Under the pieces are notes generated by a model. It was not told the origin of the DNA, searched no databases, and saw nothing but the letters and a program-made list of their open reading frames with translations. Of a DNA stretch of 64,000 nucleotides, positions 15,728 through 22,193 are shown in pieces (the first letter of the stretch is position 1; the number at the start of each line of letters is the position of its first letter). Source of the stretch: Candidatus Aenigmatarchaeota archaeon (GTDB lineage Archaea > Aenigmatarchaeota > Aenigmatarchaeia > QMZP01 > QMZT01); contig CAVSBQ010000002.1 of the NCBI GenBank assembly GCA_963726265.1, positions 262,486-326,485 of the forward strand. The letters run 5' to 3'. Both the position numbers and the translations under genes were made by a program.

Positions 15728-15837
15728 TGGACTCGTCGGGAGTTTCAAACGGACGCAGATGAAATCTGCGTCTTGCGCCTTTGAACCCGAGGCCTCTCGG
15801 ATGCGAGCCGAGCGCTCTACCACTGAGCTACGAGCCC
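15728..15837 (-). tRNA. tRNA-Ala(CGC) with a 38-nt intron in the T-loop
   Basis: Minus strand: acceptor GGGCTCG/CGAGTCC with G3:U70; D-arm GCTCAGTGGTAGAGC; anticodon arm CTCGG-CTCGCAT-CCGAG. The T-stem TCGGG/CCCGA encloses 45 nt instead of 7. 72 nt after intron removal. CCA is not encoded. Confidence 0.85.
15742..15779 (-). other. Putative tRNA-Ala intron at about position 59/60
   Basis: Removal restores T-loop TTCAAAT. The intron has a perfect 9-bp hairpin GACGCAGAT-TTC-ATCTGCGTC and a TTTGAA segment complementary to exon TTCAAA. Confidence 0.65.
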
Positions 15838-16294: not shown

Positions 16295-16831
16295 ATGATT
16301 GACCTTTACACGTTCGTCGAGGCCGTCTGGCTCATCTGGCCGGCGTACGGGGCGAATGGCCTATGCATGCTCGCGCGTGGGAAGCGGGCCATCGACGGCG
16401 GCCGCATGTGGCGGGGCAAACAGATTTTCGGGCCTGGAAAGACGTGGGAAGGCCTCGTTCTCGGCGTGGTTGTCGCGACGCTGGTCGCGACGTTCCAGAT
16501 GCTCGTCGCGCCGTTTCTGCCGTGGAATCTTTCGCCCGTCCCGCTTGATATTGTTATCATGACGCCTCTGCTCGGCTTCCTGATGGGCCTAGGCGCGATG
16601 CTCGGGGACATAGGAGGCTCGTTCATCAAAAGGCGGTTTGGCATCGCGAGAGGGAAGCCCGCCCCTCTTCTGGACCAGCTCGACTTCATAATTGGAATGC
16701 TGGTTTTCGCTAGCCTTGTGGTCGCGTTCAAATGGGAATGGGCGGTGATAATGCTGGTGATGACACCGATAATCCATCTGACAGCGAACTTCGTGGCGTA
16801 TCTGCTCAAGCTCAAGAACGTGCCTTACTAA
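16295..16831 (+). CDS. carS: CDP-archaeol synthase
   Basis: WPAYGANG, GPGKTWEG and GSFIKRRFGI..GKPAPLLDQLDF blocks are typical of CarS (DUF46). Multi-TM, 178 aa. Confidence 0.85.
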   Translation: MIDLYTFVEAVWLIWPAYGANGLCMLARGKRAIDGGRMWRGKQIFGPGKTWEGLVLGVVVATLVATFQMLVAPFLPWNLSPVPLDIVIMTPLLGFLMGLGAMLGDIGGSFIKRRFGIARGKPAPLLDQLDFIIGMLVFASLVVAFKWEWAVIMLVMTPIIHLTANFVAYLLKLKNVPY

Positions 16832-16854
16832 TCTTGTAAAATTTTTCAGATTTT

Positions 16855-17349
16855 TTATAACTTTATGTAAAAGCGGCCCAAACAATTTGGAGGAAGAGCT
16901 TTATCTCTATGAACATAACCTATTTCTGAACCGTTAATAGAAGGCCCCTCTATCCACAAATCATCTCCATAAATAGATTTGCCATCAAAACTTCTATCGA
17001 TATGAAGTGATTTGCATAATTCAATGGGACCCAAGTCATCTCCTTTCTTAGATTCTCCTATTATATGAAGTCTGCGTATGAACACGCAGGATGGTTCACC
17101 CTCTTTATCAGTTGATATGTTTAGAAAAACTCCGCCGCGATAAGGCATTATATAAATTTTACCCGGAGGATAAAGGAGTCCTTCCTTGTTCTTGGTTCCT
17201 TTTCCAATTCCATGATAAGGCCATGTTTCGGTGATTATTCCACTCAAAACATTATCTTCGTATAGATTCCTGACCAGAATTCTTCCCATAATATCTCTGG
17301 CAACGTCCTTTGAATTTCGTGCAAAAAACTCCTCATTTAGTTTTTCCAT
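16855..17349 (-). CDS. mpg: AAG/Mpg-family 3-methyladenine (alkylpurine) DNA glycosylase
   Basis: FFARNSKDVARDIMGRILV...GIITETWPYHG...PPGKIYIMPYRGGVFLNIST...SCVFIRRL matches the Mpg family pattern. ATG at 17349 is preceded by GGAG, 4 nt after the upstream stop; an alternative TTG at 17364 would overlap by 11 nt. AT-rich. Confidence 0.8.
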   Translation of the reverse strand: MEKLNEEFFARNSKDVARDIMGRILVRNLYEDNVLSGIITETWPYHGIGKGTKNKEGLLYPPGKIYIMPYRGGVFLNISTDKEGEPSCVFIRRLHIIGESKKGDDLGPIELCKSLHIDRSFDGKSIYGDDLWIEGPSINGSEIGYVHRDKALPPNCLGRFYIKL

Positions 17350-17353
17350 AATA

Positions 17354-19921
17354 TCAGTCTCCAATTTTCTTTACCATGATGCAATGGCTAGTATCTTTAC
17401 GTCGGGTCTTAATTGTCGCCCTTTTCCATCCCAATTCATTTAATTTATACTCCGGTATTTCACCGATACCTCTATAACGTTCCAACAAAGCCAATACCTC
17501 CTGACCATTCTGAGCCATTTTAATTTTGTCAAAAATGTTTTTATTCACATAATCGGTCGTTCTTGCCGTCAATTCTTCATCCAAGCCGGTTTTCGGGTCA
17601 TAAAAAGCGAATTTTTTGCACACCTCTCCATTATCTTCCGCTTCCTGTGCAAATCTTATATCTCTTTTTGTTCTTCTTGGTGTTATGACATGAATATCCT
17701 TCCTGAATGCAAACTGATCTTCATCTAGTTTCTCGGAAGTCGGATACCCAATTTTTTTGCCAACGGCCATATGGACTCTAAAATCGCTTCCTATCGGTTC
17801 TATTGCCTTGACGAATCCTGATAATTCAGGAATCACCTCAAAGCCTAGCATGCCCAAACCTTCATATAATTTTTTCTGAATTTCTGGATCAATCAAACTT
17901 TCAGGGAGTGCCAGAATGTAGTATCCATTCTTTTTCAAAATCCTGTTGGCTTCCCTCACAGCCCCCGTTCTCTCCTCACCAAGAGATAAATAATAAAGGC
18001 CCAGCGAACATAACGCAAGATCGAATTTTTCGCCAATTAACGGAAGTTGATGAATAGAAGCCGCGATACTTGCGCCTTTTTGTTTAGAAAACTCTCTCCC
18101 TTTTCTCAACTGGTGTTCATTTATATCCAAACTTGTTATTGGAGCACCTAAAACATGAGATAAGATGGCTGGTCCCGAAGCCAAGTCTACCTTTTCGATC
18201 AAATTCTCGCCGCTTTGCACGAGTCCTTCAATTATTTTTTTATAAACAGCTGCGGTTTTTCCTGAATATGAACTCTCCCATCCGATGAGGTAATTATCTG
18301 CTATCTCCGTTCCCAATTCGCATCCATCGAGTTTGAGATGTTCCAGATACTGCCTCGCTCCTATTCCATAAAGGTTTGCGTTGTGCAGGCTGATTTTCTG
18401 CTGTGGGCTCAGCCTTCCTGCCTCCTTGGGCGACATTCTTTTTATTATCGATTTTTGCAAATGGGGTGGTTTTGCAGTCATCTGTTTTTCATCCGAAGTC
18501 AGTCTCCTTGTCCCGCCATCCATGACATAGGTTATGATATCTTTTTTGTCCTCTCTCTGCTCCCTTATACCCTCATCAATCGAACCGTATGGATTTAACA
18601 AATACTTGCCAACCAGGCTGAATATCTCAACAGGGTGTATCTGGCCCGGTCTCCACAACCTTTTATTGGCCTGTTCATACTCAGCGTCGGTGAAAGGCTC
18701 ATCCAGATGAATACCGTTTTGTGCAGCTGTCAAATCGGTTCCCAAGCTCATGGCCTGAACCATGCCGATGCAGACCCTCTTTTTGGGATTAGTCTGGAAC
18801 TCTATTCTTCCTTTTTCCCTATCGCTCCATGGCTCACTCTCTTTCCTGTGCAAACTCACGGTTCCGTCTAACCTGACCACACCGGCATCCTTGTATCTAT
18901 CCTCCAACACTTCTGTAACGCCGTCCCTGAAATGGGAGCTGAATATGACAACCTTTTCGCCTTTGCTCAGCTCCCTTTCGACTATTTTGTCCAAGGCATC
19001 GTATTTTGCCGAGGGAACAGTTTCTAAAATTTTTCTGAGGCCTTCATCATTTATGCAAGCGGGGTCTACCAAAGCTGGATTTATAAGAGCCTTCTCTAAC
19101 TCCATAAGCTTTCTGAACGCATTAAGGTCTTTGCGTTGATATATTTCCGTATAAATTCTTTCTTGATCAGCATTGAGAACCACCGGTATTATGTGATGCG
19201 TGATGGGCGGCAAATTGATAACATCCTCTGTTTCCCTTCTCAGCATTTTTCCGCCAGGCCCGCTCAGCATCCAGCAAAGAACTGTTGGGTCCTTTCCATA
19301 AGCTTTGTCAACATCCTCGGCTGTCGGGAATTTGTCCGGATAGAGCATGCTCACCAAGGTAAATGCATCATCTATCGTATTGGGTATAGGAGTTCCAGAA
19401 AGCAGCGCTAAATATCTAACGTTATCGGCAAGTTCTTTTATCGCTTTGGTGCGGGAAGCGAGGGGATTCCTGGAGATGTGGATTTCGTCCCCTATCAAAA
19501 AATCGAATCCTATTTCCTTTAATCTTGACACGGTATCTCTGTTGGTCTGTATTTTTTCGCCATGGAGGTCATAGAGGAGCTCATAGTTTATCAGAGTGAA
19601 ATCGGAATCCTTCGCCCTTTTCAAGTCTTTCTCGATGGTATCAGCATATACCGGCACTATTTTTTGCGGCGTTTTGAAATATTTTGCCAGCTCTCTTTGC
19701 CAGTGTTCCTTTAGAAATGCCGGAGAAACTACCAAAGCCCTTATTTTATTGCCGGTTTTGCTTTCAAATGCGTCTTTCGCAAGCCCTGCAACCGCTGTCT
19801 TGTAAAGGCCCATATCATAAGCCAATAGCGCTCTTTCATTGTCTGTAATGAACTTTACCCCCTCTACCGTGGAGATGTGAGGGAAATCCACGTATTTCGA
19901 TATCAAATTATATTTTCCCAT
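17354..19921 (-). CDS. SNF2-family helicase fused to a C-terminal class-I SAM-dependent methyltransferase domain (855 aa)
   Basis: Helicase motifs: DMGLYKT (variant Walker A), DEIH, LSGTPIPN, and LGTDLTAAQNGIHLDEPFTDAEYEQANKRLWRPGQ. MTase motifs: VDLASGPA (motif I), FDLALCSLGLYY, ILKKNGYYIL. No DPPY/NPPY DNA-MTase motif seen. AT-rich. Confidence 0.8.
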   Translation of the reverse strand: MGKYNLISKYVDFPHISTVEGVKFITDNERALLAYDMGLYKTAVAGLAKDAFESKTGNKIRALVVSPAFLKEHWQRELAKYFKTPQKIVPVYADTIEKDLKRAKDSDFTLINYELLYDLHGEKIQTNRDTVSRLKEIGFDFLIGDEIHISRNPLASRTKAIKELADNVRYLALLSGTPIPNTIDDAFTLVSMLYPDKFPTAEDVDKAYGKDPTVLCWMLSGPGGKMLRRETEDVINLPPITHHIIPVVLNADQERIYTEIYQRKDLNAFRKLMELEKALINPALVDPACINDEGLRKILETVPSAKYDALDKIVERELSKGEKVVIFSSHFRDGVTEVLEDRYKDAGVVRLDGTVSLHRKESEPWSDREKGRIEFQTNPKKRVCIGMVQAMSLGTDLTAAQNGIHLDEPFTDAEYEQANKRLWRPGQIHPVEIFSLVGKYLLNPYGSIDEGIREQREDKKDIITYVMDGGTRRLTSDEKQMTAKPPHLQKSIIKRMSPKEAGRLSPQQKISLHNANLYGIGARQYLEHLKLDGCELGTEIADNYLIGWESSYSGKTAAVYKKIIEGLVQSGENLIEKVDLASGPAILSHVLGAPITSLDINEHQLRKGREFSKQKGASIAASIHQLPLIGEKFDLALCSLGLYYLSLGEERTGAVREANRILKKNGYYILALPESLIDPEIQKKLYEGLGMLGFEVIPELSGFVKAIEPIGSDFRVHMAVGKKIGYPTSEKLDEDQFAFRKDIHVITPRRTKRDIRFAQEAEDNGEVCKKFAFYDPKTGLDEELTARTTDYVNKNIFDKIKMAQNGQEVLALLERYRGIGEIPEYKLNELGWKRATIKTRRKDTSHCIMVKKIGD

Positions 19922-21404
19922 AGTTTTTCCCGCCTTTATATTCAGGATTCGGAATTCGTGAATTCGCGTTTCTGATCAAATCATAATTTTGTATGTCGTT
20001 TAAGTTGTCGTATAATTTGCACCACAATCTTTTGACGAACTCGTTTTGTTCGCTGTCTGCCTTTTGCTTTATCTCCGATACGGTTCTTTCCGGATTATCG
20101 TAAAAATTCCTTCTGACCTGTTTTTCAAGAAGTTTATAGAATTCATGTTCTAGGCGAGGGTCCTGATCAAGGAATTCTGGCGGTATCCGCCTAATATAAT
20201 CTTCTGCCGGGAGATTGGACCTGCCCACCGTTATATCGCCAAGGTATGGCCCCAAGGACCAAACGGAGAATTTGACAGAACCCGGTATCATCCTCGACAC
20301 TATATGGTTGAAAACGTATTCCTTGCTTTCATGGCCGTTTTCTCCGAAAGAAGAAAGGATGGCGCTAATGGTTTCTCTCAGTCTTTCATCACTTTTGATA
20401 TAATCTGTGAAATCTTGTGAAGATTCAAATTTTCTGAAAGATCTCTTATATCTTGGATGCAGAACATCCTTTCTTTGAGCAAGTTCTTCTTCTGATAAAC
20501 CCTGTTCTTTGAGAGAAGTATATTTTTGAATTGCCCGCTTCATGATATTTTTTACAGTTGCACCACTCAAACCGGCATATCTGGCAATTTTTTCGAAGTT
20601 ATCGGTTGTTGTATATAGTTTTTCCAGAACAATATCAACTTGTTCTTGAAGAATACCTCCTCCTAGCCTTCGATATTTTGGATTTAGTTTTCCTTCTTCT
20701 ATTAATTGTTCCATAATTCTTCGCACAGCATTAAAATCTAGACCGATATCCTTACTAATTTTTTTGATGTTATCATGTGTAGTCGATAATTTTTCAAAAA
20801 TAATGTCAACCTGTCTTTTAACAATACGTCCTACTCTTAGGTATTGTGAGTCTAGTTTTCCTTCTTCTATCAATTTTTGCATAATTTTTCGAACAGTTGT
20901 ATCATCTAGACTAATATCTTTGCTAATTTTTACTAGGCTATCGTTAGTTGTGGAGAGTTTTTCTAGGATAATGTCAACTTGTTCTTGAACAATACTATTT
21001 GGTAATCTTAAATATTTTGGATGTAATACGTCATTTCTTTTTAGCAGTTCTCCATCGGAAAGACCTTGCTCTTTTAGTAAAAGATATTTTTGTATTGCGT
21101 TGTTCATAATTTTCTTTACAAGTTCATCAGATCTTTCAATATCTTTGCCGATTTTTTTTAAACTATCATGGGTTGTCGAAAGTTTTTCTAAAAGAACACC
21201 AACTTCTTCTGATGTAATATATCTTCGGTGTCTTCGATATTTTGGATCTAATTTTCCTTCTTTTATTGACTGCTCCATTATTTTTTTTAGATAATAGTGA
21301 TTGTATAATGCAACCTCTCTGCCAATTTTTGCTAGGCTATCGTTAGTTGTGGAGAGTTTTTCTATCACTTTTTCTTCTATTTTTTTTGATATTCTTTTTG
21401 GCAT
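19908..21404 (-). CDS. Protein with five tandem HTH-like repeats plus a roughly 170-aa C-terminal domain of unknown function
   Basis: EKL(S/Y)TT(N/H/T)D motif recurs at residues 15, 73, 148, 204 and 261, each followed by KI.KDI......V(K/R)(K/R)IM. 14-nt overlap with the downstream helicase gene. Confidence 0.7.
   Translation of the reverse strand: MPKRISKKIEEKVIEKLSTTNDSLAKIGREVALYNHYYLKKIMEQSIKEGKLDPKYRRHRRYITSEEVGVLLEKLSTTHDSLKKIGKDIERSDELVKKIMNNAIQKYLLLKEQGLSDGELLKRNDVLHPKYLRLPNSIVQEQVDIILEKLSTTNDSLVKISKDISLDDTTVRKIMQKLIEEGKLDSQYLRVGRIVKRQVDIIFEKLSTTHDNIKKISKDIGLDFNAVRRIMEQLIEEGKLNPKYRRLGGGILQEQVDIVLEKLYTTTDNFEKIARYAGLSGATVKNIMKRAIQKYTSLKEQGLSEEELAQRKDVLHPRYKRSFRKFESSQDFTDYIKSDERLRETISAILSSFGENGHESKEYVFNHIVSRMIPGSVKFSVWSLGPYLGDITVGRSNLPAEDYIRRIPPEFLDQDPRLEHEFYKLLEKQVRRNFYDNPERTVSEIKQKADSEQNEFVKRLWCKLYDNLNDIQNYDLIRNANSRIPNPEYKGGKNYGKI
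20439..21392 (-). repeat. Intragenic tandem repeats (5 units of about 56-75 codons) encoding the HTH-like modules
   Basis: Includes a 41-nt DNA repeat with a single mismatch (aattttt[a/g]ctaggctatcgttagttgtggagagtttttcta) at 20925-20965 and 21324-21364. Confidence 0.8.
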
Positions 21405-21590
21405 TTGTTCACCAAATTAACTACTATTTAATGATTATTAGAAAGGTTTATAAATCACTAGAATCCGGCAATTTGGACTATTTAGAGTTTCGTATCAAGG
21501 TTATCGCTCCATGTCGAATTAACCTGCATACAATCTGGGGAATCTGGGAAAATCTTTTTTATGCAACTCCACCTATTAGTATTGTTCTAT

Positions 21591-22193
21591 ATGCATGGCA
21601 AGTTCATCGTCTTCGAGGGGATTGACAAGTCGGGCAAGGCTACGCAGGCGAAGCTGCTGTGCGAACACCTACACGCGAAAGGCGCGCACGTGGTTTACAC
21701 GGCAGAGCCGAGCCCGAACAACCCGGCCGGAAGGCTGATAAAGGACTGGCTGGCCGGCAGGTTAGAAATGACGAGCGGCGAGGCGATAACGCTGCTCTAC
21801 ACGGCCGATCGCTTCGAACATCTGAAGAGGGTGATACTGCCCAACATCGCGGAGGGCAGGAATGTCGTGTGCGACCGCTACTTCTACTCGACCATTGCAT
21901 ACGAATCGGCGATTTTCAACATTGATGCGGCATGGATAAAGAAGCTGCACGAGAACGTGCGCAAGCCTGATCTCGTGATTTACATCGACATAGCGCCCGA
22001 TGTCTCGCTGGCGCGAAAGCGCAGTCGACCAGACGACCGCCTCGAGAAGGTCGAGCTGCTGCGCAAGGTGAGGGATGCATATCACAGGATGGCGAAGGAC
22101 GAGGGCTTCTTTGTCGTGGACGGCGACCGGACGAAGGACGAGGTGTTTGCAGACGTGAAGAAAATCTGCGAGAGGTTTCTGGAAATCAGATAA
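21591..22193 (+). CDS. tmk: Thymidylate kinase
   Basis: P-loop FIVFEGIDKSGKATQ plus the DRY motif. ATG at 21591 with a TATA-like CTTTTTTATG about 30 nt upstream. Confidence 0.85.
   Translation: MHGKFIVFEGIDKSGKATQAKLLCEHLHAKGAHVVYTAEPSPNNPAGRLIKDWLAGRLEMTSGEAITLLYTADRFEHLKRVILPNIAEGRNVVCDRYFYSTIAYESAIFNIDAAWIKKLHENVRKPDLVIYIDIAPDVSLARKRSRPDDRLEKVELLRKVRDAYHRMAKDEGFFVVDGDRTKDEVFADVKKICERFLEIR

What the first reader, a model, noticed from the sequence alone, without database searches (positions are those of the whole stretch)
17354..19921. SNF2 helicase with a variant Walker A, fused to a non-DNA-type class-I methyltransferase and an uncharacterised C-terminal tail
**Helicase part**
- The SNF2 motifs (DEIH, LSGTPIPN, the motif V/VI block ending in RPGQ) are clear.
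- Motif I reads DMGLYKT, where SNF2 proteins normally have GLGKT. The second Gly is replaced by Tyr, which questions ATPase competence.

**C-terminal parts**
- Residues ~545-725 (nt 17747-18289) carry VDLASGPA / FDLALCSL / LKKNGYYIL, typical of Methyltransf_11/25-like enzymes rather than N6A/N4C/C5 DNA MTases.
- The last ~130 aa have no recognisable motif.

I do not know of a characterised example of this fusion architecture in archaea.
Basis: partly seen in the sequence, partly recalled or inferred. Interest (0 to 1): 0.62.

Follow-up and report, generated by a model that had tools for sequence, protein, structure and literature searches.

The report
DNA motor fused to Rrp8-like methyltransferase
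A tiny (DPANN-type) archaeon carries an imported three-gene cassette: a DNA-tracking motor fused to an RNA-type methyl-adding enzyme, a DNA-binding adaptor, and a look-alike of a DNA-repair enzyme that lacks the usual catalytic residue. No paper or defence catalogue searched describes this set, and what it methylates is unknown.

Summary
Window 17354-19921 (-) is one 855-aa ORF with an SNF2 ATPase (residues 21-426), a class-I SAM methyltransferase (577-723) and a folded tail. Motif I reads DMGLYKT (Tyr40 for the second Gly).

- **Not an artefact.** The same fusion occurs in at least 125 sequence clusters from independent assemblies.
- **Tyr40 is not decay.** It is kept in a clade of three and in an 88%-identical relative. 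The family lost this Gly about six times (Y, F, R, Q) while keeping Lys/Thr, DExH and motif VI. The SNF2 part has dN/dS 0.07.
- **The methyltransferase** is nearest to Rrp8/nucleomethylin, an rRNA m1A enzyme, not to DNA methylases.
- **The "motif-less" tail** is a basic linker, a conserved strand-helix that packs on the methyltransferase, and an optional helical/hairpin extension.

The gene is the core of a module. An adaptor protein (variable DNA-binding repeats plus a conserved helical domain, fused to the motor in other lineages) accompanies it in nearly all loci. An AAG/MPG-like protein without the catalytic Glu accompanies it in about half. Here the 4.7-kb, 40% GC cassette is inserted between carS and tmk.

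Most likely it is an adaptor-targeted, motor-driven methylation machine acting on DNA or something bound to it. The substrate is untested.

The parts
17354..19921 (-). SNF2 ATPase / class-I methyltransferase fusion gene (P0001, 855 aa)
   Evidence: ORF and translation. Pfam domains. The same architecture occurs in 125 of 155 family sequences; the other 30 are mostly short fragments, 26 of them under 400 aa.
19079..19861 (-). SNF2 N-terminal lobe (residues 21-281), with DEIH (145-148) and LSGTPIPN (174-181)
   Evidence: PF00176 at 1.2e-24. phrog_62 at 2e-66. Closest solved structure is SsoRad54 1z63, 9e-20.
19796..19816 (-). Motif I / Walker A, D36-M-G-L-Y40-K-T42, with Tyr in place of the second Gly
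   Evidence: Also LYKT in P0004, P0005 and L049. F, R or Q at this position in other members. About six independent replacements on the SNF2 tree.
18644..19006 (-). SNF2 C-terminal lobe (Helicase_C, residues 306-426), with motif VI Q417..R421..R424PGQ just after it
   Evidence: PF00271. Q417 and R421 are invariant in A1.
18215..18430 (-). Helical segment before the methyltransferase core (residues 498-569), carrying the family-invariant Y544, W548 and Y560
   Evidence: Model helices H9-80, pLDDT 85-97. Invariant Y45, W49 and Y61 in A3 numbering.
17753..18193 (-). Rossmann-fold SAM methyltransferase core (residues 577-723). Motif I is VDLASGPA. D598 lies at the end of strand 2. Also contains FDLALCSL and REANRILKKNGYYIL.
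   Evidence: PF08241 at 4.5e-11. AlphaFold2 pLDDT 95-98. Foldseek top hit 2zfu (RRP8/nucleomethylin), E 1.4e-8, TM 0.77 on the target. 8 of 12 relatives hit Pfam Methyltransf_8.
17615..17752 (-). Basic, low-confidence linker (residues 724-769)
   Evidence: pLDDT 59-86. Family median K+R is 25% against 15% overall, net charge +3.
17519..17614 (-). Conserved strand(s) plus helix (residues 770-801; E-[IV]-C-x-x-F-A-F ... L-x-x-R-L-x-x-Y) that belong to the methyltransferase module
   Evidence: F771 is invariant (F272 of A3). pLDDT 91-97.
17357..17518 (-). Optional C-terminal extension (residues 802-855): helices then a beta-hairpin. The topology is compatible with a winged helix; this was not tested.
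   Evidence: DSSP of the model. Present in P0008/9/10/12 and absent in P0004-P0007. dN/dS of the tail is 0.16.
19908..21404 (-). Adaptor/partner gene (P0002, 498 aa), whose stop overlaps the fusion gene's start by 14 nt. It has five wHTH-like repeats (about nt 20439-21404) and a conserved all-helical C-domain (residues 323-498, nt 19911-20438).
   Evidence: Weak HTH family hits. DNA repeats D1-D3. The C-domain is shared by the partners of all loci and by the N-terminal extension of the fused long forms. AlphaFold2 pLDDT 84, with no PDB fold match.
16855..17349 (-). AAG/MPG-like gene (164 aa from the ATG at 17349, 4 nt after the fusion gene's stop) that lacks the catalytic Glu
   Evidence: PF02245 at 63.7 bits. 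The alignment to human AAG puts Trp at Glu125 and deletes the His136 loop. The same loss is seen in all 7 module-linked copies, while canonical MPGs of the phylum keep E-[TV]-E-A-Y. The 164-aa form is supported by P0174.
16832..21560 (.). Inserted cassette between carS (16295-16831, +) and tmk (21561-22193, +); GC 39.7% against 53.3% for the rest of the window
   Evidence: Flank identities. carS and tmk are 17-26 nt apart in two congeners and 666 nt apart in a third. GC values.
21447..21455 (-). TATA-like TTTATAAAT, 43-51 nt upstream of the partner's ATG; a possible cassette promoter (inference only)
   Evidence: Read from the sequence; not tested.

Best explanation
P0001 is the enzymatic core of a horizontally acquired three-gene module of DPANN archaea.

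**Shown**
- It is one polypeptide that joins an SNF2-type ATPase, an Rrp8/nucleomethylin-like class-I SAM methyltransferase, and a folded tail.
- This methyltransferase type occurs almost only fused to SNF2.
- A partner protein with variable tandem DNA-binding repeats and a conserved helical C-domain lies next to it in nearly all loci. In other lineages that partner is fused to the motor's N-terminus.
- An AAG/MPG-like protein without the canonical catalytic Glu lies next to it in about half of the lineages.
- All three genes are under purifying selection.
- In this genome the cassette is an insertion.

**Inferred**
1. The partner docks through its C-domain and chooses DNA sites through its fast-evolving repeats.
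2. The SNF2 part still binds and hydrolyses ATP despite Tyr40, and tracks along or distorts duplex DNA.
3. This presents a substrate to the fused methyltransferase. The substrate is most likely a purine base in the tracked DNA, less likely a nascent RNA or a DNA-bound protein.
4. The AAG-like protein then binds (reads), or processes in a non-canonical way, the methylated base.

**Biological role (inferred).** The patchy distribution, foreign composition and diversifying targeting subunits point to genome conflict or DNA marking rather than housekeeping.
For: **Fusion and domains**
- Domain calls, alignment and family census.

**ATPase site**
- Walker Lys/Thr, DExH and motif VI are kept across 94-96 members. 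The Gly was replaced about six times independently.
- The Tyr is kept in an 88%-identical relative, and dN/dS of the SNF2 part is 0.07. The housekeeping gene carS gives 0.06.

**Methyltransferase**
- AlphaFold2 pLDDT is 90.4.
- The best fold match is 2zfu, RRP8/nucleomethylin.
- 8 of 12 relatives hit Pfam Methyltransf_8.
- SAM-binding D579, G583 and D598 are conserved.
- The linker is basic.

**Partner**
- Its C-domain is conserved next to the motor in the window and in L001-L004, L024-L028, L030 and L032. It is fused in P0006/9/10/12.
- Long forms carry HTH arrays.
- The repeats evolve 5-7 times faster in amino-acid changes than the rest, and the partner length differs (498 against 615 aa) between 88%-identical cassettes.

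**AAG-like protein**
- It is adjacent in 7 lineages, in different gene orders.
- It is the only PF02245 gene in those genomes, and forms a low-scoring subfamily (47-64 bits against 100-244 for canonical copies).
- The catalytic Glu is absent in all copies.
- One more copy sits next to an SNF2-less HNH-repeat/methyltransferase fusion.

**Insertion and distribution**
- Insertion between carS and tmk, with low GC.
- Present in 13 of 371 genomes of the phylum and in none of 20 same-genus or same-family genomes.
Against: - No biochemical data exist and no substrate is shown.
- Every close structural or profile relative of the methyltransferase acts on RNA, small molecules or unknown substrates. No DNA-methylase family matches.
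- About half of the loci have no AAG-like gene, so it is not essential to the core.
- A Tyr in place of the P-loop Gly is not known to me in any active SNF2 enzyme, so the motor could be slow or could bind ATP without hydrolysing it.
- No nuclease or other effector typical of defence systems is fused or conserved nearby.
- PADLOC gives only generic SNF2 hits.
- Two acidic residues specific to the module-linked AAG-like subfamily could rebuild an active site, so "reader" rather than "excision enzyme" is open. These are the Asp of F/L-D-G and the Glu of L-W-I-E.
- An earlier checked note of this scan priced the "lesion-type DNA methylation" reading at only 5%.
Confidence: 0.42

Rival explanations
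1. RNA-directed machine. The SNF2 part rides on DNA, or with RNA polymerase as RapA does. The Rrp8-like domain methylates RNA (nascent transcripts, rRNA or tRNA), as its nearest relatives do.
For: - The best fold match is RRP8/nucleomethylin. Bud23 and TrmM are also near the top.
- Relatives hit Pfam Methyltransf_8.
- Yeast Rrp8 makes m1A645 of 25S rRNA (PMC6085284, found).
- NCBIfam gives a weak RapA hit.
Against: - An rRNA or tRNA modification enzyme should be conserved among relatives. This gene is in 13 of 371 genomes of the phylum and is absent from congeners. It also arrived by insertion.
- Its conserved companions are DNA-binding repeat proteins and a DNA base-flipping fold.
Confidence: 0.17
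2. Chromatin-protein methyltransferase. The motor is a remodeler-like enzyme, and the methyltransferase modifies a DNA-bound protein (histone, Alba, or the partner itself).
For: - The closest solved relatives of the SNF2 part are SsoRad54 and eukaryotic remodelers.
- Methyltransf_11-type enzymes include protein methyltransferases (established knowledge).
- Nucleomethylin is a chromatin-associated protein (established knowledge).
Against: - This does not explain the linkage to an AAG-like base-binding protein in seven lineages.
- No protein-methyltransferase family stands out in the profile or fold searches.
- The patchy, mobile distribution is odd for a chromatin regulator.
Confidence: 0.1
3. 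Dead motor. Tyr40 abolishes ATP hydrolysis, and the SNF2 part serves only as a DNA-binding or nucleotide-sensing scaffold for the methyltransferase.
For: - The Gly before the Walker Lys is nearly universal in P-loop NTPases and in SNF2 proteins (established knowledge; alignment to 1z63).
- 14-15 of 94-96 family members have lost it.
Against: - The catalytic Lys/Thr, DExH Glu and both motif VI arginines are retained in the Y, F, R and Q variants. A scaffold would not need them.
- dN/dS is 0.07.
- MCM proteins work with Ala or Ser at this position (my own knowledge), so the Gly is not absolutely required.
Confidence: 0.15
4. Artefact. Two genes were joined by an assembly or sequencing error.
For: A first-stage note reports several frame disruptions elsewhere in this genome (not checked here).
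Against: - The fused architecture recurs in 125 sequences from Logan, ENA, JGI and NCBI assemblies.
- An 88%-identical copy on an independent metagenome contig is collinear over all 855 residues.
- The junction region is a confidently folded helical segment conserved in the family.
Confidence: 0.01

Closest known systems
DNMT5 (Cryptococcus neoformans and other eukaryotes)
   Same: One polypeptide joins an SNF2 ATPase and a SAM methyltransferase. In DNMT5 the ATPase step is required for methylation, independently of nucleosomes (bioRxiv 10.1101/2020.01.05.895227, found).
   Different: DNMT5 carries a cytosine-5 DNA methyltransferase domain and is eukaryotic. Here the methyltransferase is Rrp8/Methyltransf_11-like and lies C-terminal to the motor. 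The system also has a separate adaptor and an AAG-like companion, and no C5 family matches.
Rrp8 / nucleomethylin (Pfam Methyltransf_8; PDB 2zfu)
   Same: It is the best structural match of the methyltransferase module. Weak to moderate profile matches occur across the family. The FD-x-A-x-C-S-L and EANR-[IV]-L-K signatures are shared, though that comparison rests on my recollection of the Rrp8 motifs and is a lead only.
   Different: Rrp8 is a stand-alone nucleolar rRNA m1A enzyme. P0001 scores 18.8-21 bits, below the Pfam cut-off of 27. It is fused to a DNA motor and occurs in a mobile cassette.
DISARM (DrmD SNF2 helicase with DrmMI/MII methylases), Zorya ZorD, Dpd DpdE
   Same: These are prokaryotic SNF2 ATPases working with DNA modification or defence. 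They are the best PADLOC and NCBIfam hits of the SNF2 part.
   Different: The hits cover only the generic SNF2 core and lie far below the curated cut-offs (51-74 bits against 500-1500). The cassette has three genes flanked by carS and tmk, with no DrmA/B/C, ZorA/B/C or Dpd genes. Their methylases are DNA-type and are separate genes.
DarB-type methylase-helicase polyvalent proteins of phages and plasmids; Type ISP restriction enzymes
   Same: A DNA-tracking SF2 motor and a methyltransferase in one polypeptide, found in mobile or conflict contexts (established knowledge).
   Different: Those carry N6-adenine DNA methylase domains, and Type ISP enzymes also carry a nuclease. No phage record covers more than 54% of P0001, and only its SNF2 part. 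No IMG/VR contig encodes the methyltransferase module.
Human AAG / bacterial Mpg (PF02245), for the downstream gene
   Same: P0003 passes the Pfam cut-off and aligns to human AAG over the fold. Tyr127 and Asn169 equivalents are kept.
   Different: The catalytic Glu125 is replaced: Trp here, and Ala, Gly or Cys in relatives. The His136 loop is deleted and Tyr159 becomes Met. It forms a separate low-scoring subfamily found only beside targeted methyltransferase genes.

Membership tests
SNF2 family ATPases (PF00176 + PF00271) | Profile match above the curated cut-offs for both lobes | tested here: met
   87.4 bits against 24.9, and 30 bits against 23.5. SsoRad54 1z63 matches at 9e-20 over residues 32-465.
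SNF2 family ATPases (PF00176 + PF00271) | Canonical motif I G-x-G-K-T | tested here: not met
   It reads G38-L-Y40-K-T, so the second Gly is Tyr. Lys and Thr are kept.
SNF2 family ATPases (PF00176 + PF00271) | Motif II DExH, motif III (S/T)GTP, and motif VI arginines | tested here: met
   D145-E146-I-H, S175-G-T-P, and Q417/R421/R424; invariant or nearly invariant in A1 and across the family.
SNF2 family ATPases (PF00176 + PF00271) | DNA-stimulated ATP hydrolysis and translocation | not testable with these tools
   Only indirect evidence: dN/dS 0.07 and about six independent replacements of the Gly with the other motifs kept.
Class-I SAM methyltransferases (Methyltransf_11, PF08241) | Profile match above the cut-off and a Rossmann fold with SAM-binding motif I and an acidic residue after strand 2 | tested here: met
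   43.7 bits against 21.2. Model pLDDT is 95-98 over the core, with more than 1000 class-I methyltransferase fold matches. D579, G583 and D598 are conserved.
Rrp8 / nucleomethylin (Methyltransf_8, PF05148) | Profile match above the Pfam gathering score (27 bits) | tested here: not met
   P0001 scores 18.8-21 bits. 8 of 12 relatives match at E <= 0.01, the best at 7.7e-9.
Rrp8 / nucleomethylin (Methyltransf_8, PF05148) | Closest fold | tested here: met
   2zfu_B ranks first, with E 1.4e-8, TM 0.77 on the target and rmsd 3.8. The E-values of other class-I methyltransferases are close behind.
Rrp8 / nucleomethylin (Methyltransf_8, PF05148) | N1-adenine methylation of large-subunit rRNA | not testable with these tools
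The patchy distribution argues against a housekeeping rRNA role.
DNA methyltransferases (N6A/N4C with (D/N/S)PP(Y/F); C5) | Match to a DNA-methylase family, or the catalytic DPPY / PCQ motifs | tested here: not met
   No such family appears among the Pfam or NCBIfam hits. The post-strand-4 motif is FDLALCSL.
DNMT5-type SNF2-methyltransferase fusions | Cytosine-5 methyltransferase domain fused to SNF2 | tested here: not met
   There is no C5 domain, and the methyltransferase is Methyltransf_11/8-like.
DISARM | DrmA, DrmB (DUF1998) and DrmC/DrmE with DrmD and a DNA methylase in one locus | tested here: not met
   The cassette holds three genes between carS and tmk. DrmD models score 51.7 bits against a cut-off of 610.
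DarB-like methylase-helicase polyvalent proteins | N6-adenine DNA methylase domain N-terminal to the helicase, on phage or plasmid | tested here: not met
   Phage hits cover only residues ~14-478. No IMG/VR locus matches. Plasmids were not searched.
AAG/MPG glycosylases (PF02245), for the neighbour P0003 | Profile match above the cut-off | tested here: met
   63.7 bits against 27.
AAG/MPG glycosylases (PF02245), for the neighbour P0003 | Catalytic Glu (human Glu125), and the pocket residues His136 and Tyr159 | tested here: not met
   Trp stands at the Glu125 position, the His136 loop is deleted, and Met stands at Tyr159. The same Glu loss is seen in all 7 module-linked copies, whereas 5 canonical MPGs of the phylum keep E-[TV]-E-A-Y.

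The most novel reading that the evidence does not exclude
The module is a programmable write-and-read system for an unusual DNA base methylation.

- Interchangeable repeat-array adaptors dock on an SNF2 motor.
- The motor's Rrp8-like domain puts a ring-nitrogen methyl group (m1A, m3A or m7G type) on purines of selected DNA.
- The catalytically rewired AAG-like protein reads or removes that mark.
- The outcome would be a new kind of self/non-self marking or anti-invader weapon in ultra-small archaea.

Tolerance of Tyr, Phe, Arg or Gln in the Walker A loop would then be a family-specific adaptation of the motor.
Probability: 0.1. Interest if true: 0.85.

Novelty: new variant of a known kind. Interest (0 to 1): 0.62.

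Why it matters
Motor-coupled methyltransferases are known with DNA-type methylases (DNMT5, DISARM, DarB, Type ISP). Here the motor carries an RNA-type (Rrp8-like) methyltransferase. It has its own family of exchangeable DNA-binding adaptors and, in half of the lineages, an AAG look-alike without the usual catalytic residue.

- **If the substrate is DNA,** this would be a new route to DNA base methylation, with a built-in reader or eraser, in organisms with very small genomes.
- **If the substrate is RNA or protein,** it would be a new way of delivering such enzymes along DNA.
- **The Walker A loop.** The family also offers a natural experiment on how much the P-loop Gly before the Walker Lys can be changed in an SF2 motor.

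The system is small (three genes). Its activities could be tested directly with proteins made in laboratory strains.

Tried and rejected
**Searches that gave little or nothing**
- Sequence search of the methyltransferase against PDB gave only structural-genomics methyltransferases of unknown substrate.
- The search for related loci with the 12-row alignment failed because it had no conserved stretch. With 5 rows it found only two true relatives in genome contigs, a Nanohaloarchaea MAG and an unnamed archaeon.
- IMG/VR has no locus.
- Phage records match only the SNF2 part.
- PADLOC gives only generic SNF2 hits, nothing for the AAG-like gene and only weak hits for the partner.
- The partner C-domain has no PDB fold match; the best E-value is 0.33.
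- Cluster look-ups gave few names: a Nanoarchaeota archaeon, and an IMG name "SNF2 family helicase/SAM-dependent methyltransferase".
- Three literature searches found no description of the architecture.

**Checks on the cassette**
- No target-site duplication or terminal repeats flank it.
- ARAGORN finds no tRNA nearby.
- No integrase lies in the cassette.

**Readings considered and rejected**
- Sequencing-error fusion.
- Membership of DISARM, Zorya or Dpd.
- A DNA-type methylase.
- A housekeeping MPG that merely happens to lie nearby. Every PF02245 gene in module-bearing genomes is the adjacent one.


Full report
**1. The observation**

Window 17354-19921 on the minus strand is a single 855-aa ORF.
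- Pfam places an SNF2-related domain at residues 21-281 (87.4 bits; cut-off 24.9).
- Helicase_C is at 306-426.
- Methyltransf_11 is at 579-669 (43.7 bits; cut-off 21.2). Weaker generic class-I methyltransferase hits follow, plus a sub-threshold hit to Methyltransf_8, the Rrp8 family.
- Motif I reads D36-M-G-L-Y40-K-T42.
- The closest solved structure of the motor part is the Sulfolobus SNF2/Rad54 core 1z63 (9e-20). The alignment puts LLAYDMGLYKT against CLADDMGLGKT.

**2. The fusion is real and defines a family**

- A word-indexed search found full-length relatives with the same Pfam architecture from Logan, ENA, JGI and NCBI assemblies. They are 52% to 26% identical, and one is annotated as Aenigmarchaeota.
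- An exhaustive search with only residues 490-855 (linker, methyltransferase, tail) found 222 representative clusters at E <= 1e-3 and 101 at E <= 1e-10. Almost all are 770-1800 aa long, with the match at the C-terminus.
- Of 155 sequences examined, 125 carry the SNF2 domain. The other 30 are mostly short fragments, 26 of them under 400 aa. So this methyltransferase type is found essentially only fused to SNF2.
- An independent metagenome contig (L049) carries an 88%-identical, collinear 859-aa copy.
- One lineage (L032) has the parts as three separate genes in the order SNF2, partner, methyltransferase. That is a natural split and not a frameshift.
- The sequencing-error reading is therefore rejected.

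**3. The Walker A variant**

- Tyr at the second Gly is shared by the three closest relatives, which form one clade with 100% support. It is also present in L049.
- Across 94-96 family members with this region aligned, the position is Gly in 80-81, Phe in 6, Arg in 4, Tyr in 3 and Gln in 1-2. The following Lys is invariant. The residue after it is Thr or Ser in all but two (Cys). The DExH box and motif VI are largely kept.
- On a FastTree of the SNF2 domain built without the motif I columns, the position changed about six times. The minimum possible is four, and well-supported branches force at least five.
- Against L049, the SNF2 part has dN 0.049, dS 0.69 and dN/dS 0.07. That matches the neighbouring housekeeping gene carS at 0.06.
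- This does not prove ATPase activity. It does show that the variant is neither an error nor decay, and that residues needed only for nucleotide binding and hydrolysis are still under selection.
- From my own knowledge, I know of no active SNF2 enzyme with an aromatic residue here. MCM proteins tolerate Ala or Ser at the equivalent place.

**4. The methyltransferase and the tail**

- AlphaFold2 on residues 490-855 with a 40-row alignment gave pLDDT 90.4 and pTM 0.89.
- The parts of the model are:
  - four helices at protein residues 498-569;
  - a Rossmann core at 577-723;
  - a low-confidence basic linker at about 724-769;
  - a confidently placed strand pair and helix at 770-801;
  - helices and a beta-hairpin at 802-852.
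- The family alignment shows these invariant or nearly invariant residues:
  - Y544, W548 and Y560 in the helices;
  - D579, S582, G583 and P584 in motif I;
  - D598-x-N600 after strand 2;
  - D634, C638 and S639 after strand 4;
  - R651, E657, N659 and R660;
  - G702, K723 and F771.
- The last 54 residues are missing in the closest relatives P0004-P0007 but present in P0008 and in the long forms.
- The linker is basic across the family. Median K+R is 25% against 15% overall.
- Foldseek against PDB ranks the nucleomethylin/RRP8 domain 2zfu first (E 1.4e-8, TM 0.77 on the target). Uncharacterised class-I methyltransferases, Bud23, TrmM and small-molecule methyltransferases follow with similar E-values.
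- A profile of the family also reaches 2zfu by sequence (8.8e-4), though generic methyltransferases score higher.
- 8 of 12 relatives hit Pfam Methyltransf_8, the best at 7.7e-9.
- Yeast Rrp8 makes m1A645 of 25S rRNA (PMC6085284).
P0001 itself stays below that family's cut-off.

**5. The upstream gene is an obligate partner**

- P0002 (19908-21404, overlapping the fusion gene's start by 14 nt) has five wHTH-like repeats and a 176-residue C-terminal domain.
- That C-domain is shared by the genes next to the fusion gene in L001-L004, L024, L026 (two copies), L027, L028 (three copies), L030 and L032, whether upstream or downstream. A truncated homologue (L025) lacks the C-domain hit. In these partners the N-terminal repeats belong to different repeat types, such as HTH-like and homing-endonuclease-associated repeats.
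- The same domain forms the N-terminal extension of the fused long forms P0006, P0009, P0010 and P0012. Another long form carries HTH arrays. This is Rosetta-stone evidence for a physical complex.
- The C-domain is predicted all-helical (pLDDT 84) and matches nothing in PDB.
- Between the window and L049, the C-domain is 86% identical. The repeats are 54% identical (dN 0.36), and the protein is 498 aa here against 615 aa in L049. That fits a specificity element that changes fast.

**6. The downstream gene is an AAG/MPG look-alike tied to the module**

- P0003 is 164 aa from the ATG at 17349, which lies 4 nt after the fusion gene's stop. It passes the PF02245 cut-off.
- An MPG-like gene lies next to the fusion gene in the window/L049, L001, L002/L007 (cut by the contig end), L024, L026, L032 and, weakly, L029. 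Three different gene orders are seen. That is 7 of about 15 distinct lineages.
- In the 13 genomes of the phylum that carry the fusion, PF02245 occurs in four, once each, and every time adjacent to the fusion.
- In the whole phylum sample, canonical MPGs score 100-244 bits. The module-linked ones score 47-64 bits.
- The alignment to human AAG puts Trp at the catalytic Glu125, deletes the His136 loop, and puts Met at Tyr159.
- All seven module-linked copies read E-T-[AGWC]-[APG]-[YF], where five canonical MPGs of the same phylum read E-[TV]-E-A-Y.
- Two acidic positions are specific to the linked subfamily: the Asp of F/L-D-G and the Glu of L-W-I-E. An alternative active site therefore cannot be excluded.
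- dN/dS is 0.10.
- One further copy, in a same-family genome (L039), carries Asp at the catalytic position. It sits directly before a 777-aa protein that joins four homing-endonuclease-type repeats to a class-I methyltransferase without any SNF2 domain. This is independent support for a link between the AAG-like protein and DNA-targeted class-I methyltransferases.

**7. Origin and distribution**

- The cassette (16832-21560) has 39.7% GC. The rest of the window has 53.3%, and the flanking genes have 56-58%.
- The flanks are CDP-archaeol synthase and thymidylate kinase.
- In three congeners, carS and tmk are adjacent: 17 and 26 nt apart in two, and 666 nt in the third. The wider gene order is otherwise largely conserved. 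The cassette is therefore an insertion.
- No flanking repeats, integrase or tRNA were found.
- It is the only SNF2 gene in this 1.13-Mb genome by tblastn.
- The methyltransferase module is present in 13 of 371 genomes of the phylum and in none of the 20 same-genus or same-family genomes.
- The host is an archaeon. It has an archaeal SSU rRNA. It belongs to the same class as the Aenigmarchaeota MAG that encodes P0008.
- Named relatives are Nanohaloarchaea, Nanoarchaeota and Aenigmarchaeota.

**8. Mechanism**

- Three of the four components have DNA-related folds: an SNF2 duplex-DNA translocase, tandem DNA-binding repeats, and a base-flipping glycosylase fold.
- The most economical reading is that the adaptor brings the motor to chosen DNA. 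ATP-driven tracking or distortion then exposes a substrate to the fused methyltransferase, and the AAG-like protein handles the methylated purine. I put this at about 0.4.
- The weak point is the substrate. The methyltransferase's relatives act on RNA or on other non-DNA substrates. Half of the loci lack the AAG-like gene, and no nuclease effector is conserved.
- An RNA-directed reading and a protein-directed reading remain open.

**9. Comparison with known systems, and novelty**

- The module works like the motor-coupled methyltransferases: DNMT5, DISARM, DarB-type proteins and Type ISP enzymes.
- It fails the defining features of each. It has no C5 or N6 DNA-methylase domain, no DrmA/B/C, no nuclease, and no phage or IMG/VR counterpart.
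- I found no description in the literature searched.
- I file it as a new variant of a known kind.

**10. Earlier notes of this scan**

- Notes on other genomes describe the same module in DPANN archaea and CPR bacteria. They are AI notes and are not independent evidence.
- I re-derived the loss of the catalytic Glu, the adaptor tail and the Rrp8-like fold on this window's own sequences.
- One checked note priced the "lesion-type DNA methylation" reading at 5%. That led me to keep the bold reading at 0.1.

**11. Limits**

- There is no biochemistry.
- The structures are predictions seen only as summaries.
- The tree is a FastTree.

Noticed in passing
L039:1278-4076 (G334, same family as the window's genome): An AAG/MPG-like gene with Asp at the catalytic position (I-T-A-T-D-A-Y) is followed directly by a 777-aa protein. 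That protein has four homing-endonuclease-type repeats fused to a class-I methyltransferase and has no SNF2 domain. It looks like an SNF2-less version of the module.
   Followed up: partly
L032:720-5242 (G185): SNF2 (468 aa), partner (452 aa) and methyltransferase (360 aa) are three separate, abutting genes. A divergently oriented AAG-like gene lies next to them. This is a natural split of the fusion.
   Followed up: partly
L028:6134-10060; L026:3727-7219; L033:3960-8065: The adaptor gene is multiplied: three tandem paralogues in L028 and two in L026. L033 has four tandem paralogous genes that phmmer does not link to the other adaptors. This suggests exchangeable specificity subunits.
   Followed up: partly
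L049:1784-3631 versus window 19908-21404: In an 88%-identical copy of the cassette at the same carS/tmk site, the adaptor is 615 aa instead of 498 aa. Its repeats are only 54% identical, while its C-domain is 86% identical. A 190-aa ORF without Pfam hits lies between tmk and the adaptor in that contig.
   Followed up: partly
L024:14341-14892; L026:7494-8375; L001:5407-6642: Single-instance neighbours of the module: a NERD nuclease-related domain gene, an AP_endonuc_2 / xylose-isomerase-like TIM barrel gene, and an IS110 transposase.
   Followed up: no
window 21447-21455: A TATA-like TTTATAAAT lies 43-51 nt upstream of the adaptor's start codon, in the 156-nt spacer before tmk. It is a possible promoter for the three-gene operon.
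   Followed up: no
window 1-64000: ARAGORN reports no tRNA gene in the whole window. First-stage notes nevertheless describe intron-bearing tRNA-Ala (15728-15837) and tRNA-Leu (2340-2521) genes. If those are real, their introns defeat the standard search.
   Followed up: no
whole genome G000: By tblastn (E < 1e-5) the cassette's SNF2 gene is the only SNF2-family gene in this 1.13-Mb genome. The AAG-like gene is its only PF02245 gene.
   Followed up: partly
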